From assembly GCA_002839745.1 (NCBI GenBank), contig PGYQ01000002.1:21515-85514 (forward strand): 64,000 bases of DNA, in the 5' to 3' direction. This stretch comes from Candidatus Kuenenbacteria bacterium HGW-Kuenenbacteria-1 (GTDB lineage: Bacteria; Patescibacteriota; Patescibacteriia; UBA2591; PGYQ01). The position numbers were made by a program, and so were the translations under genes. Numbering within the stretch: position 1 is the first letter of the stretch; each line of letters begins with the position of its first letter. The notes beneath the pieces were generated by a model. It was not told where the DNA came from. It did not search any database and worked only from the letters and a program-made list of their open reading frames with translations. Positions 49,557-52,050 of this stretch are shown here, one piece after another.

Positions 49557-51373
49557 ATTTACTTAGAGTTTGATCCTGGCTCAGGATGAACGCTAGCGGC
49601 GTGTTTAAGGCATGCAAGTCGAACGAACTTTATGTTTTGCACAAGGAAATTTAAATTTTAAAATATAAAATTAAACCAATTCAATTGATTTAATTTTTTT
49701 ATTTTAAAAAATTATTTAGATTTTCTCGCGCAAAATATAAGGTTAGTGGCAAACGGGTGAGTAACACATTGGTAACATACCCAAAAGAAAGGCATAACTT
49801 CGAGAAATCGAGGCTAATTCCTTATAAGGTGCGATAATAATTTTATCGCATTAAAGATTTAGAGCAATCTAAATTGCTTTTGGAGTGGCCTATGGCTCAT
49901 TAGCCTGTTGGTAAGGTAATGGCTTACCAAAGCTATGATGAGTAACGGGTGTGAGAGCATGACCCGTCTCACTGGGACTGAGACACTGCCCAGACTCCTA
50001 CGGGAGGCTGCAGTCAAGAATATTTCGCAATGCCCGAAAGGGTGACGAAGCGACGCCGCGTGATCGATGAAGCCCCTCGGGGTGTAAAGATCTTTTATAG
50101 AGGAACAAGCTACCGTACCTCACTGTGTTTGGTACGGAATTTTAAATTTTAAATTTTAAATTTTAAATTAATTTTTAATGACTTAATTTTTAAACAAAAC
50201 AAAAAAATGTTTAGAAATTTTGAAATTAGAAATTTATTGGAAATTGGAAATTAAAAATTGGAAATTCCGCCCGAACGTAGCGAGGTGCGGTGGTTGAGGG
50301 TACTTTGTGAATAAGTCACTGCTAATCACGTGCCAGCAGCAGCGGTAATACGTGAGTGACAAGCGTTATCCGGAATCATTGGGCGTAAAGCGTCCGCAGA
50401 CGTTTTATTAGGTTTTTGGTTAAATCTTGATGCTTAACATCAAAACCGCCAAAAAAACCAATAGAATAGAGGTTGGGAGAGGTAAGCGGAATAGCCGGTG
50501 TAGTAGTTAAATGCGTTAATATCGGCTAGAACACCAATAGCGAAGGCAGCTTACTAGAACAATTCTGACGTTCAAGGACTAAAGCGTGGGTAGCGAATGG
50601 GATTAGATACCCCAGTAGTCCACGCCGTAAACGATGGATACTAGACATTGGAAGTATCGACCCTTTCAGTGTCGCTATATTTAAGATAACTCCTTAAGTA
50701 TCCCGCCTGGAGAGTACGATCGCAAGATTAAAACTCAAAGGAATTGACGGGGATCCGCACAAGCGGTGGAGCATGTGGTTTAATTCGACGATACGCGAAA
50801 AACCTTACCAAGGTTTGACATCCCTCGAATCCCGGAGAAACTCGGGAGTGCTTGCAAAAGAGCGAGGAGACAGGTGCTGCATGGTTGTCGTCAGCTCGTG
50901 CCTTGAGGTGTACGGTTAAGTCCGGTAACGAGCGCAACCCTTATAATGTGTTATATTTTCACATTAAACTGCCCCCGCCCAAGTTTTTGATATATTTTTA
51001 TCAAAAATTTAGGCGGGGGAGGAAGGTGGGGATGACGTCAAATCAGCATGGCTCTTACGCCTTGGGCCACACACGTGCTACAATGGCCAATACAAAAAGT
51101 CGCAATACCGTAAGGTGGAGCAAATCTTATAAAATTGGCCTCAGTTCGGATTGAGGGCTGAAATTCGCCCTCATGAAGTTGGAATCGCTAGTAAATGTTG
51201 GTCAGCATACAACATTGAATACGTTCTCGGATCTTGTACACACCGCCCGTCACGCCAAGAGAGTTGGCAATATTTGAACCCCGATGTTATGTCGGGGGAG
51301 AGTAAGGCCAATAATAAGGGTGAAGTCGTAACAAGGCATCCGTAGCGGAAGCTGTGGATGGATCACCTCCTTT
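49557..51373 (+). rRNA. rrs: 16S ribosomal RNA, about 1.8 kb with three AT-rich expansion segments
   Basis: AGAGTTTGATCCTGGCTCAG at 49565. Internal GTGCCAGCAGCAGCGGTAATAC. 3' end GGATCACCTCCTTT. Extra sequence at about 49627-49745, 50138-50266 and 50945-51010. Confidence 0.9.
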
Positions 51374-51921
51374 CAAGGAGAAAATTTCACTAATTAATTT
51401 ATTAATTAGTGATACAGTCGATTATTTCTTTAATTAGAAATAAAAAAGAAAATCAAAAAATTCCTATCACTTTTTAAATGTCAAAAATAAAAACGTAACA
51501 AGTAACATATAATCAGTAACGAGTAATAAAAATTCAAAAATAAAAAATAATCAGTGAATTATAAAAAAAACTTGGTCTAGTTTTACTCACTTATCTTTTA
51601 TTTTCTTACCATAGAAAATAAGTTTTAACATTCAAAATAAAAAACCTGTCCTTCTTGGGACGGGTTTTTTATTTTTTGTAAATTTATTTTTTTTCTATTT
51701 TTTATTTCTTAGTCGAGACCCTACATAAAAGGGACCGTTCCGTTCGGGACCGTTCATAAAGGAACCGTGCACAAAAGGGTAACTCTTTTTTTTATTGCCC
51801 TTACTTCTTTTTATATGTTATAAAAATTTGCATTATTTTTTCTTTTTTTTTATAATATCAAAACTGATTGTTTTTTAATTTTCTTGTTTTTTTATTTTTG
51901 TGTTTCTTGTTTTTTTATTCC

Positions 51922-51997
51922 GGGCGCATAGCTCAGCTGGTAGAGCATTTCTCTGATAAGGAAAAGGTCCATGGTTCGAGTCCATGTGCGCCCACCA
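51922..51997 (+). tRNA. tRNA-Ile (anticodon GAT) in the spacer after 16S, CCA encoded
   Basis: GGGCGCA acceptor, D-arm TAGCTCAGCTGGTAGAGCA, anticodon loop CTGATAA, T-arm CATGG-TTCGAGT-CCATG. Confidence 0.8.
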
Positions 51998-52050
51998 AGA
52001 AAGTTTAAAGTGTAAAATTAAGATTAAAATTTTTAATTTTATAATTTTTT

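What the first reader, a model, noticed from the sequence alone, without database searches (positions are those of the whole stretch)
49557..52050. 16S rRNA gene with three expansion segments, a 515F-site mismatch and no linked 23S
The gene is about 1.8 kb. AT-rich extra sequence lies in the V1 region (about 49627-49745), in V3 just before the 515F site (about 50138-50266, containing (AATTTTA)x4 and GGAAATT repeats and closed by a CGGAATT/AATTCCG stem), and there is a smaller GC hairpin expansion at about 50945-51010. The universal 515F target reads GTGCCAGCAGCAGCGGTAATAC, with A instead of C at one position. After the spacer tRNA-Ile(GAT) the operon stops. A GHKL ATPase gene starts 54 nt later, with no tRNA-Ala, 23S or 5S. 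These traits fit CPR-type rRNA genes and would bias amplicon surveys against this organism.
Basis: partly seen in the sequence, partly recalled or inferred. Interest (0 to 1): 0.5.

Follow-up and report, generated by a model that had tools for sequence, protein, structure and literature searches.

The report
Patescibacterial 16S gene with helix-tip insertions
This is an intact 16S rRNA gene from an uncultured ultra-small (CPR/Patescibacteria) bacterium that has the extra hairpins, primer-site change and separation from the 23S gene already known for that group, and one of its hairpins belongs to a conserved family that appears to move between rRNA helix tips.

Summary
A full-length bacterial 16S gene lies at 49558-51373 (1816 nt). 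It has extra hairpins at the tips of helix 6 (+98 nt), helix 17 (+174 nt) and helix 40 (+36 nt). The 515F site has one mismatch, C526A. tRNA-Ile(GAT) lies 548 nt downstream, and the 64 kb window holds no 23S or 5S gene.

All of this is typical of Patescibacteria and already published. C526A is matched by G505U, so the 505-526 pair in the 530 loop is kept. Ten related loci also lack a linked 23S.

None of the three insertions is an intron and none holds an ORF. Close relatives (V4 about 97% identical) carry insertions at the same three sites, but with unrelated sequences and lengths. Some of those hold a 23S_rRNA_IVP or GIY-YIG ORF.

The h17 insert belongs to a conserved ORF-less hairpin family. 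It sits at h6 or h17 in scattered lineages, and twice in one gene.

The h40 extension falls in a length class (19-21 bp) shared by 13 distinct sequences.

Most likely, h6 and h17 are intervening sequences cut out by RNase III, and h40 is kept. No RNA data were available to test this.

The parts
49443..49471 (+). Promoter-like site (TTGACA-17-TACTAT) upstream of the 16S leader
   Evidence: Consensus scan, 10 of 12 matches. Consensus match only; function not shown.
49491..49524 (+). 5' leader arm of the pre-16S processing stem
   Evidence: Forms 32 intermolecular pairs with 51458-51496. Duplex energy is -40.9 kcal/mol against -19.3 +/- 3.5 for shuffles. Homologous leader and trailer sequences are present in relative L163.
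49558..51373 (+). 16S rRNA gene, 1816 nt, full length
   Evidence: RF00177, 1352.9 bits, model positions 1-1533. C1400, A1408, G1491 and A1492 match E. coli. The 3' end reads GGATCACCTCCTTT.
49626..49744 (+). Extended helix 6 hairpin (Rfam insertion 49637-49734, 98 nt), AT-rich, no ORF
   Evidence: Folds to -41.9 kcal/mol, z = -8.9. The basal 28 bp are conserved in L163 and L186, with 1 compensatory and 7 one-sided changes. The window copy is 52-56 nt longer at the tip.
50110..50295 (+). Helix 17 insertion (Rfam 50118-50291, 174 nt); member of the conserved CCUC-A-C / G-C-GAGG hairpin-element family
   Evidence: z = -10.8. The plus strand folds to -73.4 and the minus strand to -47.7 kcal/mol, with 11 G-U pairs. 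Leave-one-out arm HMMs find their best window hits at 50113-50140 (E 2.8e-5) and 50271-50290 (E 0.0035). The arms covary. 7-nt tandem repeats occur on both arms.
50320..50320 (+). U at E. coli position 505, partner of A526
   Evidence: Pairwise alignment to E. coli 16S. T at this position in roughly 112 of 120 loci that carry A526.
50330..50348 (+). 515F primer site with C526A at 50341
   Evidence: One mismatch, at primer position 12. Hu et al. 2024 made this position degenerate.
50674..50681 (+). Small 8-nt insertion (gcuauauu) near model position 848
   Evidence: Rfam alignment. Among the sampled loci the Ec806-907 span falls into a 117-118 nt class and a 110 nt class; the window is in the former (118).
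50943..50966 (+). Helix 39, shortened by 16 nt relative to the bacterial model
   Evidence: Rfam alignment.
50972..51019 (+). Extended helix 40 hairpin (Rfam insertion 50979-51014, 36 nt): GC clamp plus AU-rich distal stem, 20 bp
   Evidence: z = -5.75. It falls in a discrete class (h39-40 span 78-81 nt, 19-21 bp) shared by 13 of 120 distinct sequences.
51458..51496 (+). 3' trailer arm of the pre-16S processing stem
51634..51677 (+). Intrinsic-terminator-like hairpin (GC core 51645-51664) flanked by an A-run and a T-run
   Evidence: Folds to -25 kcal/mol. Sub-threshold Rfam hits here are all to leader or sRNA models (Thr_leader, rnk leader, lactis-plasmid RNA). The tool's own terminator scan did not flag it. 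Termination is inferred.
51827..51856 (+). Promoter-like site (TTTGCA-18-TATAAT) about 65 nt upstream of tRNA-Ile
   Evidence: The homologous TTGCAT...TATAAT block is conserved upstream of tRNA-Ile in L163.
51922..51997 (+). tRNA-Ile (GAT)
   Evidence: ARAGORN and Rfam, 72.8 bits. tRNA-Ile(GAT) follows the 16S gene in 7 of 9 related loci; in five of them it is the first downstream gene, at 169-306 nt.
52051..53516 (+). GHKL-type ATPase gene split by a frameshift (62-aa ORF 52051-52239 and 426-aa ORF 52236-53516)
   Evidence: Neither piece matches Pfam. Adding one A to the A6 run at 52199-52204 gives a 488-aa protein that matches HATPase_c_3 at E 3e-13. The same split is called in the other assemblies.

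Best explanation
**Shown.** This is the functional, probably single-copy 16S rRNA gene of an uncultured Patescibacteria (CPR) bacterium.
- Its best matches among the sampled genomes are Parcubacteria-group and ABY1-type MAGs. It is no more than 81% identical to any of the 120 sampled GTDB loci.
- Its closest metagenomic relatives, at 89-91% identity, include contigs labelled Hain-H41/H43.
- The gene is unlinked from the 23S gene.
- Its 530-loop pair is swapped from G505-C526 to U505-A526.
- It carries three non-intron, ORF-less hairpin insertions that replace the apical loops of h6, h17 and h40.

**Inferred.**
- The gene is transcribed from its own promoter as a pre-16S whose leader and trailer form a 32-bp processing stem. 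Transcription ends at a terminator-like hairpin before tRNA-Ile, which has its own promoter.
- The long, near-perfect h6 (about 51 bp) and h17 (about 77 bp) hairpins are intervening-sequence-type cassettes. They are acquired or replaced at the DNA level. The h17 one belongs to a conserved family that appears mobile and occupies h6 or h17 in different lineages.
- RNase III most likely cuts both hairpins out of the pre-rRNA without re-ligation. The mature 16S would then be fragmented and held together by the GC-rich basal stems.
- The 20-bp h40 extension is probably retained as a true helix extension, because its length is shared by many lineages.

The identity and anatomy are near certain (about 0.95). 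The fate of the segments in RNA is the uncertain step, and the confidence given below refers to it.
For: **Identity.**
- Full-length RF00177 match.
- The capped 120-locus sample of genomes carrying the A526 22-mer is almost entirely Patescibacteria.
- U505 accompanies A526 in roughly 112 of 120 loci.

**Unlinked arrangement.**
- No LSU or 5S match in the 64 kb.
- All 10 related loci have no LSU in their flanks, and 7 of 9 have tRNA-Ile(GAT) downstream.
- Unlinked rRNA genes in Patescibacteria are published.

**Not introns.**
- No intron family matches even at E <= 1.
- The insertions hold no ORF.

**Hairpins selected at the RNA level.**
- z-scores run from -5.8 to -10.8.
- For h17 the plus strand folds to -73.4 and the minus strand to -47.7 kcal/mol, with 11 G-U pairs.

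**Cassette behaviour.**
- Relatives 96.5-96.8% identical in V4 have unrelated h17 sequences. Across these relatives and the window, the spans between the anchor motifs are 74-446 nt (h6), 130-267 nt (h17) and 78-318 nt (h39-40).
- L161 and L186 are 100% identical on both sides of h6. One has a 78-nt h6 span; the other has a 446-nt span that holds a 23S_rRNA_IVP ORF.
- GIY-YIG ORFs lie in the h6 or h17 inserts of L162, L064 and L120.

**The h17 family.**
- It has a conserved basal module.
- Seven base pairs show compensatory changes. 89.9% of cells are paired, against 36-52% when the partner columns are slid.
- Leave-one-out HMMs recover both window arms as their top hits.
- L172 carries two copies, 88% identical, at h6 and h17 of one gene.

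**RNase III route.**
- A leader-trailer stem is present here and in L163.
- CPR genomes retain rnc.
- Tsurumaki 2024 raises the possibility that such short, ORF-less, non-intron insertions are RNase III intervening sequences.
- Brown 2015, as quoted by later papers, found from transcripts that CPR rRNA insertions are removed.

**h40 retention.**
- The extension falls in a discrete 19-21 bp class whose sequence differs between lineages.
Against: - No RNA data were available, so excision, fragmentation and retention are all untested for this gene.
- No RNase III gene lies in the 64 kb window.
- The transcript evidence quoted from Brown 2015 was discussed mainly for large intron-like insertions and could not be read directly.
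- Pairing in a segment that is kept would also be selected, so stable hairpins do not separate the two models.
- The conserved basal module of the h17 family could equally be a protein-binding site in a retained segment.
- Mobility is inferred from patchy distribution and one intragenic duplicate. No mechanism or target-site signature was found.
- The element is not more conserved than the 16S core: WIN against L155 is 64% for the element and 73% for the core. Ancient vertical descent with many losses is therefore not excluded.
- The terminator scan tool did not call the 51645 hairpin.
Confidence: 0.55

Rival explanations
1. All three segments are true expansion segments. They stay in the mature 16S rRNA as elongated surface helices h6, h17 and h40. 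They grow and shrink at their tips by replication slippage in an AT-rich genome, as eukaryotic expansion segments do.
For: - All three extend native apical helices that lie on the subunit surface. Tsurumaki 2022 places h6, h10 and h17 together on the surface.
- Relative to L163 and L186, the window's h6 differs mainly by 52-56 extra nt at the tip.
- 7-nt tandem repeats lie on both arms of h17.
- h40 falls in a discrete length class, as expected for a structural part.
- The h17 family has a conserved basal module with an A.C 1x1 loop, which could be a binding site.
Against: - Uninterrupted 50-77 bp duplexes are good RNase III substrates (established knowledge of the enzyme), and CPR genomes keep rnc.
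- Close relatives carry wholly unrelated sequences at h6 and h17, some with IVP or GIY-YIG ORFs that are unlikely to sit in a mature ribosome.
- The same element occurs at two different helices.
- CPR ribosomes usually have h6 and h17 shortened, not lengthened.
- Transcript evidence quoted for CPR points to removal of insertions.
Confidence: 0.3
2. The segments are self-splicing group I or group II introns, or degenerate remnants of them, that are spliced out with the exons ligated. This is the usual description of CPR 16S insertions.
For: Reviews describe CPR rRNA insertions as self-splicing introns. Tsurumaki 2024 classed 35% of CPR 16S insertions of at least 100 bp as group I introns and a further 53 of the 378 as group II.
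Against: - No intron family matches at the gathering threshold or at E <= 1.
- The segments are only 36-174 nt and fold as simple hairpins with no catalytic core.
- They hold no homing-endonuclease ORF.
- They replace hairpin loops in variable helices.
- Tsurumaki 2024 assigns the recurrent intron sites to 16IS4-7, 16IS9 and 16IS10, and separately notes short ORF-less insertions that match no intron model.
Confidence: 0.03
3. The extra sequence is an assembly or chimera artefact, or the gene is a decaying pseudogene copy.
For: 16S regions are common break and chimera points in metagenome assemblies. The first ~90 nt of the Logan contig L002 do come from a different 16S.
Against: - The sequence is identical through all three inserts in three contigs built by different pipelines.
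- Related loci from other samples carry inserts at the same three sites.
- The core scores 1352.9 bits, the decoding-site residues are intact and a leader-trailer stem is present.
Confidence: 0.02

Closest known systems
Short, ORF-less, non-intron 'insertion sequences' in CPR/Patescibacteria 16S rRNA genes (Brown et al. 2015; Tsurumaki et al. 2024, PMC11270868)
   Same: Same host group and same gene. The inserts sit at recurrent sites, are under 200 nt, match no intron model and hold no ORF. The authors call this class 'uncharacterized' and suggest RNase III intervening sequences as one possibility.
   Different: Their survey counted only insertions of at least 100 bp and gave site positions only in figures, which are not held. 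No conserved sequence family, structure or polymorphism was described for this class. Here the h17 insert is assigned to a defined family, and h40 (36 nt) and h6 (98 nt) fall below their cut-off.
Bacterial rRNA intervening sequences cut by RNase III. Examples are 23S helices 25 and 45 of Salmonella, Leptospira, Campylobacter and Coxiella, and the rarer 16S cases such as Caedibacter caryophila, Helicobacter canis and Clostridium paradoxum (the 16S examples are from my own knowledge).
   Same: A long, near-perfect stem-loop replaces the apical loop of a variable helix. The distribution is sporadic. An optional 23S_rRNA_IVP (S23p) ORF can be present, and relative L161 has one at h6. The Coxiella intervening sequence with its S23p ORF and RNase III cleavage is described in PMC4990558.
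   Different: Excision and fragmentation are not shown here. There are three sites in one 16S gene. The sequences are unrelated to the known intervening sequences as far as was tested: Rfam has no match.
Eukaryotic and archaeal rRNA expansion segments
   Same: Helix-tip extensions on the subunit surface whose length varies and whose base composition follows the genome. The h40 extension has a length shared across lineages.
   Different: Expansion segments are retained by definition, which is untested here. The h6 and h17 contents are swapped wholesale between near-identical strains. Expansion segments are not known to behave that way.
Unlinked rRNA genes (Brewer et al., bioRxiv 10.1101/705046)
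   Same: No 23S gene lies within 1500 bp of the 16S gene, which was their criterion. Patescibacteria are named as a clade with unlinked genes. The related loci examined here show the same arrangement.
   Different: Nothing substantive. tRNA-Ile(GAT) stays next to the 16S gene as a remnant of the operon spacer, probably with its own promoter.
The 515F/806R coverage gap for Patescibacteria (Hu et al. 2024, PMC10943839)
   Same: The mismatch is at 515F position 12, one of the positions they made degenerate. The original V4 primer pair covers 6.3% of Parcubacteria and 0.5% of ABY1.
   Different: The paper treats it as a primer problem. Here it is shown to be a compensated swap of the 505-526 pair.

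Membership tests
Bacterial SSU rRNA (Rfam RF00177) | Full-length match above the gathering score | tested here: met
   1352.9 bits against a gathering score of 50, model positions 1-1533, not truncated.
Bacterial SSU rRNA (Rfam RF00177) | Decoding-centre and 3'-end residues intact | tested here: met
   C1400, A1408, G1491 and A1492 match E. coli. The 3' end is GGATCACCTCCTTT.
Patescibacteria (CPR) 16S | Closest relatives are Patescibacteria genomes | tested here: met
   Almost all 120 sampled genome loci that share the 22-mer are Patescibacteria MAGs. The best identities are 78-81%.
Patescibacteria (CPR) 16S | Insertions at recurrent helix-tip sites | tested here: met
   At least 30 nt above the median length in 21 of 125 loci (h6), 19 of 180 (h17) and 35 of 133 (h39-40).
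Unlinked rRNA genes | More than 1500 bp between the 16S and 23S genes | tested here: met
   No LSU match in 49.5 kb upstream or 12.6 kb downstream.
Group I / group II intron | Catalytic-core covariance-model match | tested here: not met
   No intron family at the gathering threshold or at E <= 1 in 49400-52060.
Group I / group II intron | Homing endonuclease or maturase ORF (optional) | tested here: not met
   No ORF inside any of the three inserts.
RNase III-type rRNA intervening sequence | Replaces the apical loop of a variable helix with a long, near-perfect stem-loop | tested here: met
   The Rfam alignment places the inserts in the hairpin loops of h6, h17 and h40. The stems have 51, 77 and 20 bp.
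RNase III-type rRNA intervening sequence | Sporadic distribution, and the same site can carry a 23S_rRNA_IVP ORF | tested here: met
   The h6 insert of L161 encodes PF05635 at E 2.8e-20. L161 and L186 are otherwise identical.
RNase III-type rRNA intervening sequence | Absent from mature rRNA, and the rRNA is fragmented | not testable with these tools
   No RNA reads are available. This is the decisive missing test.
RNase III-type rRNA intervening sequence | RNase III encoded by the organism | tested here: inconclusive
   No RNase III signature motif in the 64 kb window. The literature states that CPR genomes retain rnc.
rRNA expansion segment | Retained in the mature ribosome | not testable with these tools
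   Needs RNA reads or a ribosome structure.
rRNA expansion segment | Homologous extension with constrained length across related lineages | tested here: inconclusive
   Met for h40, which falls in the 78-81 nt span class of 13 distinct sequences. Not met for h6 and h17, whose sequences are unrelated in relatives about 97% identical in V4.
CCUC-A-C / G-C-GAGG hairpin-element family (defined here) | Both conserved arms present in the right order, orientation and spacing, at a 16S helix tip | tested here: met
   Leave-one-out arm HMMs have their top window hits at 50113-50140 (E 2.8e-5) and 50271-50290 (E 0.0035). Members were found only inside 16S genes across 1.34 Mb.
CCUC-A-C / G-C-GAGG hairpin-element family (defined here) | Base pairing of the arms supported by covariation | tested here: met
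   Across 5 sequences, 89.9% of cells are paired, against 80.1% in shuffles and 36-52% with slid partners. Seven pairs show compensatory changes. The sample is small.

The most novel reading that the evidence does not exclude
The h17 insert would belong to a previously undescribed family of mobile, ORF-less, structured hairpin cassettes of about 156-196 nt. These cassettes specifically colonise the apical loops of 16S helices h6 and h17 in scattered Patescibacteria.

Their conserved basal module (CGUACCUC-A-C ... G-C-GAGGUGCG, with an A.C 1x1 loop) would act as the signal for processing or for mobility. A second family with CACACCUUUUA / UAAAAGGUGUG ends exists in forms that carry a GIY-YIG ORF and in ORF-less forms. 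That suggests a relationship like the one between autonomous and non-autonomous transposable elements.
Probability: 0.35. Interest if true: 0.55.

Novelty: new member of a known kind. Interest (0 to 1): 0.3.

Why it matters
**For surveys.** It is one more concrete case of why Patescibacteria are undercounted. 515F has one internal mismatch, 1492R has two, and the V3-V4 amplicon is 624 bp. All of this is already known in principle.

**For ribosome biology.** CPR ribosomes are described as trimmed at h6 and h17. In this lineage those same helix tips hold the longest extra hairpins and behave as exchangeable cassettes. If the conserved h17/h6 hairpin family is really mobile and is cut out by RNase III, it gives a tractable handle on the 'uncharacterized' class of CPR rRNA insertions. 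It would also bear on how fragmented 16S rRNA is tolerated.

Tried and rejected
- **Small covariance model.** A 68-position model (R1) built only from the conserved arms could not recover any real element, because the 80-130 nt distal helix exceeds the model's window. It returned only weak generic hairpins with E > 1. I replaced it with leave-one-out nhmmer searches on each arm.
- **Extra copies in the window.** BLAST of the three inserts against the whole window found only AT-rich low-complexity matches, so there is no sign of dispersal outside the rRNA gene.
- **More family members.** Arm HMMs that included the window copy found no members beyond the six elements used to build them and two loci (L138, L175) with the same element as L155. 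The divergent variants L130, L145 and L078 rest on inspection only.
- **RNase III in the window.** A search for the signature motif in the six-frame translation found nothing.
- **Source of the contig.** A literature search for its accessions (JAEMOG, GCA_017973855, SRR3546457, 3300029891, ERZ27239245) found nothing relevant.
- **Brown et al. 2015.** The paper is not held. Its transcript evidence is therefore cited only as later papers quote it.
- **Insertion site numbers.** The 16IS1-10 positions of Tsurumaki 2024 are given only in figures that are not held.
- **K-turn.** I considered a K-turn reading of the basal module and rejected it by inspection, because the 5' arm has no GA.
- **Spacer ORFs.** No credible ORF lies in the 16S-tRNA spacer.
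Full report
**1. What is in the sequence**

Rfam places a complete bacterial 16S rRNA at 49558-51373 on the plus strand (1352.9 bits, model positions 1-1533, 1816 nt). The window holds no 23S or 5S match. Apart from the 16S, only four tRNAs were found.

Relative to the bacterial model there are three large insertions:
- 98 nt at 49637-49734, in the loop of helix 6.
- 174 nt at 50118-50291, in the loop of helix 17.
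- 36 nt at 50979-51014, in the loop of helix 40.

Helix 39 is 16 nt shorter than in the model, and 8 extra nt lie at 50674-50681. On E. coli numbering the three insertions fall at about 69-99, 455-480 and 1161-1175.

Each region folds into one long hairpin that continues the native helix. The energies are -41.9, -80.3 and -39.5 kcal/mol, with z-scores of -8.9, -10.8 and -5.75 against dinucleotide shuffles.

(AATTTTA)x4.6 lies on the 5' arm of h17, and a 7-nt period x8.3 lies on its 3' arm.

The sequence is not an assembly accident. Window 49300-52100 is 100% identical in an NCBI MAG contig (GCA_017973855.1, JAEMOG010000237.1) and in an ENA MEGAHIT contig. A JGI contig is identical over 49300-51872, which covers the whole gene. 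A Logan contig confirms the 3' third.

**2. The 515F site**

The site reads GTGCCAGCAGCAGCGGTAA. It has one mismatch, at primer position 12, which is E. coli C526 changed to A.

Position 505 is U instead of G. From established knowledge of the 16S 530-loop pseudoknot, 505 pairs with 526. The pair is therefore swapped from G-C to U-A, not broken.

Nearly all were Patescibacteria, including Magasanik-, Uhr-, Falkow-, Nomura- and Taylorbacteria and other Parcubacteria-group lineages. About 112 of the 120 also have T at position 505.

Hu et al. 2024 report that the standard V4 primer pair covers only 6.3% of Parcubacteria and 0.5% of ABY1. They made this same primer position degenerate.

Other common primer sites in the window gene:
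- 27F, 341F, 805R/806R, 926R and 1391R match perfectly.
- 1492R has two mismatches.
- The 341F-805R amplicon would be 624 bp.
- The 27F-534R amplicon would be 785 bp.

**3. Who it is, and the operon**

The best identities to the sampled GTDB loci are only 78-81%. A metagenome scan found closer relatives:
- L139, 91% identical.
- L163, 89.6%, a contig labelled Hain-H43.
- L161, 88.9%.
- L186.

In ten related loci a 16S gene is present and no 23S gene lies in flanks of up to 8-10 kb. tRNA-Ile(GAT) lies downstream of the 16S gene in 7 of 9. In five of those it is the first gene, 169-306 nt away. Unlinked rRNA genes are a published trait of Patescibacteria.

In the window the leader (49491-49524) and trailer (51458-51496) form a 32-bp stem. 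Its duplex energy is -40.9 kcal/mol, against -19.3 +/- 3.5 for shuffles. The homologous leader and trailer sequences are present in L163.

Between the trailer and tRNA-Ile the window has about 250 extra nt that L163 lacks. This block contains a GC-core hairpin flanked by an A-run and a T-run (51634-51677). A TTGCA-N18-TATAAT block about 65 nt upstream of tRNA-Ile is conserved in both.

I infer that the 16S gene is its own transcription unit and that tRNA-Ile has its own promoter. This is not shown.

**4. What the insertions are**

They are not introns. No intron model matches even at E <= 1, they hold no ORF, and they are plain hairpins.

Pairing is selected at the RNA level. The h17 hairpin folds to -73.4 kcal/mol on the rRNA strand and only -47.7 on the opposite strand. 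It has 11 G-U pairs, 9 of them with the G on the 3' arm.

The three sites are recurrent insertion points in Patescibacteria. Across the sampled loci the median spans between the anchor motifs are 36 nt (h6), 85 nt (h17) and 48 nt (h39-40). The numbers of loci at least 30 nt longer than the median are 21 of 125, 19 of 180 and 35 of 133.

The closest relatives all carry inserts at the same three sites, but the lengths differ widely:

| Site | Spans in close relatives and the window (nt) |
|---|---|
| h6 | 74, 78, 130, 446 |
| h17 | 130, 176, 199, 267 |
| h39-40 | 78, 80, 117, 318 |

Their h17 sequences are unrelated to the window's, although the V4 region is 96.5-96.8% identical.

For h6, the basal 28 bp are shared with L163 and L186, with one compensatory and seven one-sided changes. 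The window copy is 52-56 nt longer at the tip.

Some relatives' inserts carry ORFs:
- The h6 insert of L161 encodes a 23S_rRNA_IVP protein (PF05635, E 2.8e-20).
- The h6 insert of L162 and the h17 inserts of L064 and L120 encode small GIY-YIG proteins.

L161 and L186 are 100% identical on both sides of h6 (60 nt and 579 nt), including the h17 insert. They differ only in having a 446-nt h6 span that holds the IVP ORF or a 78-nt one. So h6 content has been swapped very recently.

**5. A conserved hairpin family**

The window's h17 insert shares a basal module with elements in distant lineages. The module has three parts:
- A covarying outer stem.
- CCUC-A-C opposite G-C-GAGG, with a conserved 1x1 loop that is A.C in most copies.
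- UGYGUUYGG opposite CCGARC..UAG, followed by a long AU-rich distal helix.

The whole element is 156-196 nt. Members are:
- L138, L155 and L175, at h17.
- L133 and L021, at h6.
- L172, at both h6 and h17. The two copies are 88% identical over their full length.

On an alignment of the arms of five non-window members, 89.9% of cells pair. The figure is 80.1% in shuffles and 36-52% when the partner columns are slid. Seven pairs show compensatory changes.

HMMs built from those five members, without the window copy, find their best hits in the whole 64 kb at 50113-50140 (E 2.8e-5) and 50271-50290 (E 0.0035). These hits are in the right order and on the right strand.

No copy lies outside a 16S gene in 1.34 Mb of fetched sequence. 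Host core identity is 72.7% for the window against L155. Element identity for the same pair is 64%.

A patchy distribution, two helices used as hosts, and a near-identical pair inside one gene all point to a mobile or exchangeable cassette. No mechanism was found.

A second family has CACACCUUUUA / UAAAAGGUGUG ends. It occurs with a GIY-YIG ORF (L064 h17, L120 h17, L162 h6) and without one (L064 h6, L131 h6).

**6. Helix 40 is different**

The h39-40 spans of the distinct sequences cluster at 46-48 nt (79 of 120). A second discrete mode lies at 78-81 nt (13 of 120) and corresponds to a hairpin of 19-21 bp whose sequence differs between lineages. The window (80 nt, 20 bp) belongs to this second mode. 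A length shared while the sequence changes is what a retained structural helix would show.

**7. Most likely mechanism**

Shown: the anatomy, the sites, the family membership, the exchange between strains and the absence of intron features.

Inferred: the h6 and h17 hairpins are intervening-sequence-type cassettes that RNase III removes from the pre-16S without ligation, and the h40 extension is kept.

Four points support the inference:
- Uninterrupted duplexes of 50-77 bp are good RNase III substrates. This rests on established knowledge of the enzyme.
- CPR genomes retain rnc.
- A leader-trailer stem is present.
- The literature points the same way. Tsurumaki 2024 describes exactly this class (short, ORF-less, not intron-like) as uncharacterized and raises the RNase III possibility. 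Later papers quote transcript evidence from Brown 2015 that CPR insertions are removed.

Against it, no RNA data were available and no rnc gene lies in the window. Retention as true expansion segments remains a serious rival, at about 0.3.

One contrast is worth noting. Tsurumaki 2022 report that CPR ribosomes usually lack the tips of h6, h10 and h17. Those same trimmed tips are where this lineage carries its longest hairpins.

**8. Novelty and score**

Every element of the original finding is a published property of Patescibacteria: long 16S genes with insertions, the 515F mismatch, and unlinked rRNA genes. This gene is a new member of a known kind.

This analysis adds four points:
- The 505-526 pair swap is compensated.
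- The 16S gene and tRNA-Ile are probably separate transcription units.
- Very similar strains differ in their h6 content.
- The h17/h6 hairpin family is defined here.

The last point is the only part that may be new. It rests on six lineages and has no RNA evidence. Interest is 0.3.

Noticed in passing
window 52051-53516 (A-run at 52199-52204): The gene after tRNA-Ile is split into a 62-aa ORF and a 426-aa ORF that overlap by ATGA. Neither piece matches Pfam. Adding one A to the A6 run gives a 488-aa protein that matches HATPase_c_3 (E 3e-13). The same split is called in the JGI, Logan, NCBI and ENA contigs. It could be a pseudogene, a shared sequencing error or slippage; this is unresolved.
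   Followed up: partly
window 46156-49176 (-): The anaerobic ribonucleotide reductase NrdD is 1006 aa long. Its NRDD domain matches in two stretches, and a weak LAGLIDADG_3 match (E 4e-4) lies at aa 486-548. It probably contains an intein.
   Followed up: no
window ~51580-51830: The 16S-tRNA-Ile spacer has about 250 nt that the closest relative with flanks (L163) lacks. The block contains a terminator-like hairpin and a GC-rich island with direct repeats (GGGACCGTTC twice, then GGAACCGTGC) in otherwise AT-rich DNA. It holds no credible ORF.
   Followed up: partly
L161 1-1070 versus L186 ~3380-4080 (16S 5' part): Two contigs, labelled Hain-H43 and Hain-H41, are 100% identical on both sides of helix 6 and in the h17 insert. 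One has a 78-nt h6 span. The other has a 446-nt span that holds a 23S_rRNA_IVP ORF. This is a presence/absence polymorphism of an intervening sequence within one population.
   Followed up: yes
L172 (16S-sense strand; contig Ga0180007_10002380) ~1583-1735 and ~2094-2250: One 16S gene carries two copies (88% identical) of the same hairpin element, one at helix 6 and one at helix 17.
   Followed up: partly
L064 h6 and h17; L120 h17; L162 h6; L131 h6: A second insert family has CACACCUUUUA / UAAAAGGUGUG ends. It exists with a roughly 86-aa GIY-YIG ORF (PF01541, E 1e-13 to 1e-19) and as short ORF-less hairpins. L064 has both forms in one gene.
   Followed up: partly
window 26683-26718, 35831-35852, 55161-55182, 56394-56414, 61007-61033: The (AAATTTT)n repeat that forms the 5' arm of the h17 hairpin also occurs at several other places in the window.
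   Followed up: no
loci L006, L009, L014, L015, L021, L111, L029, L040, L115 and others: Many public MAG records titled 'uncultured Gammaproteobacteria', and single records titled Pirellulales, Limisphaerales, Polyangiaceae or Mariniblastus, carry 16S genes whose 515F variant and helix lengths match the Patescibacteria-labelled loci in the same sample. This suggests mislabelled records or mis-binned contigs.
   Followed up: no
window 51323-51344: The 1492R primer site has two mismatches (AAGTCGTAACAAGGCATCCGTA). Full-length 27F-1492R amplification would therefore also be disfavoured.
   Followed up: yes
L190 3780-4130 (-): A relative's 16S region carries group II intron domains (RF01998, RF02001) next to the 3' end of its Rfam 16S match, which runs 4098-5744 on the minus strand. 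This contrasts with the intron-free window gene.
   Followed up: no
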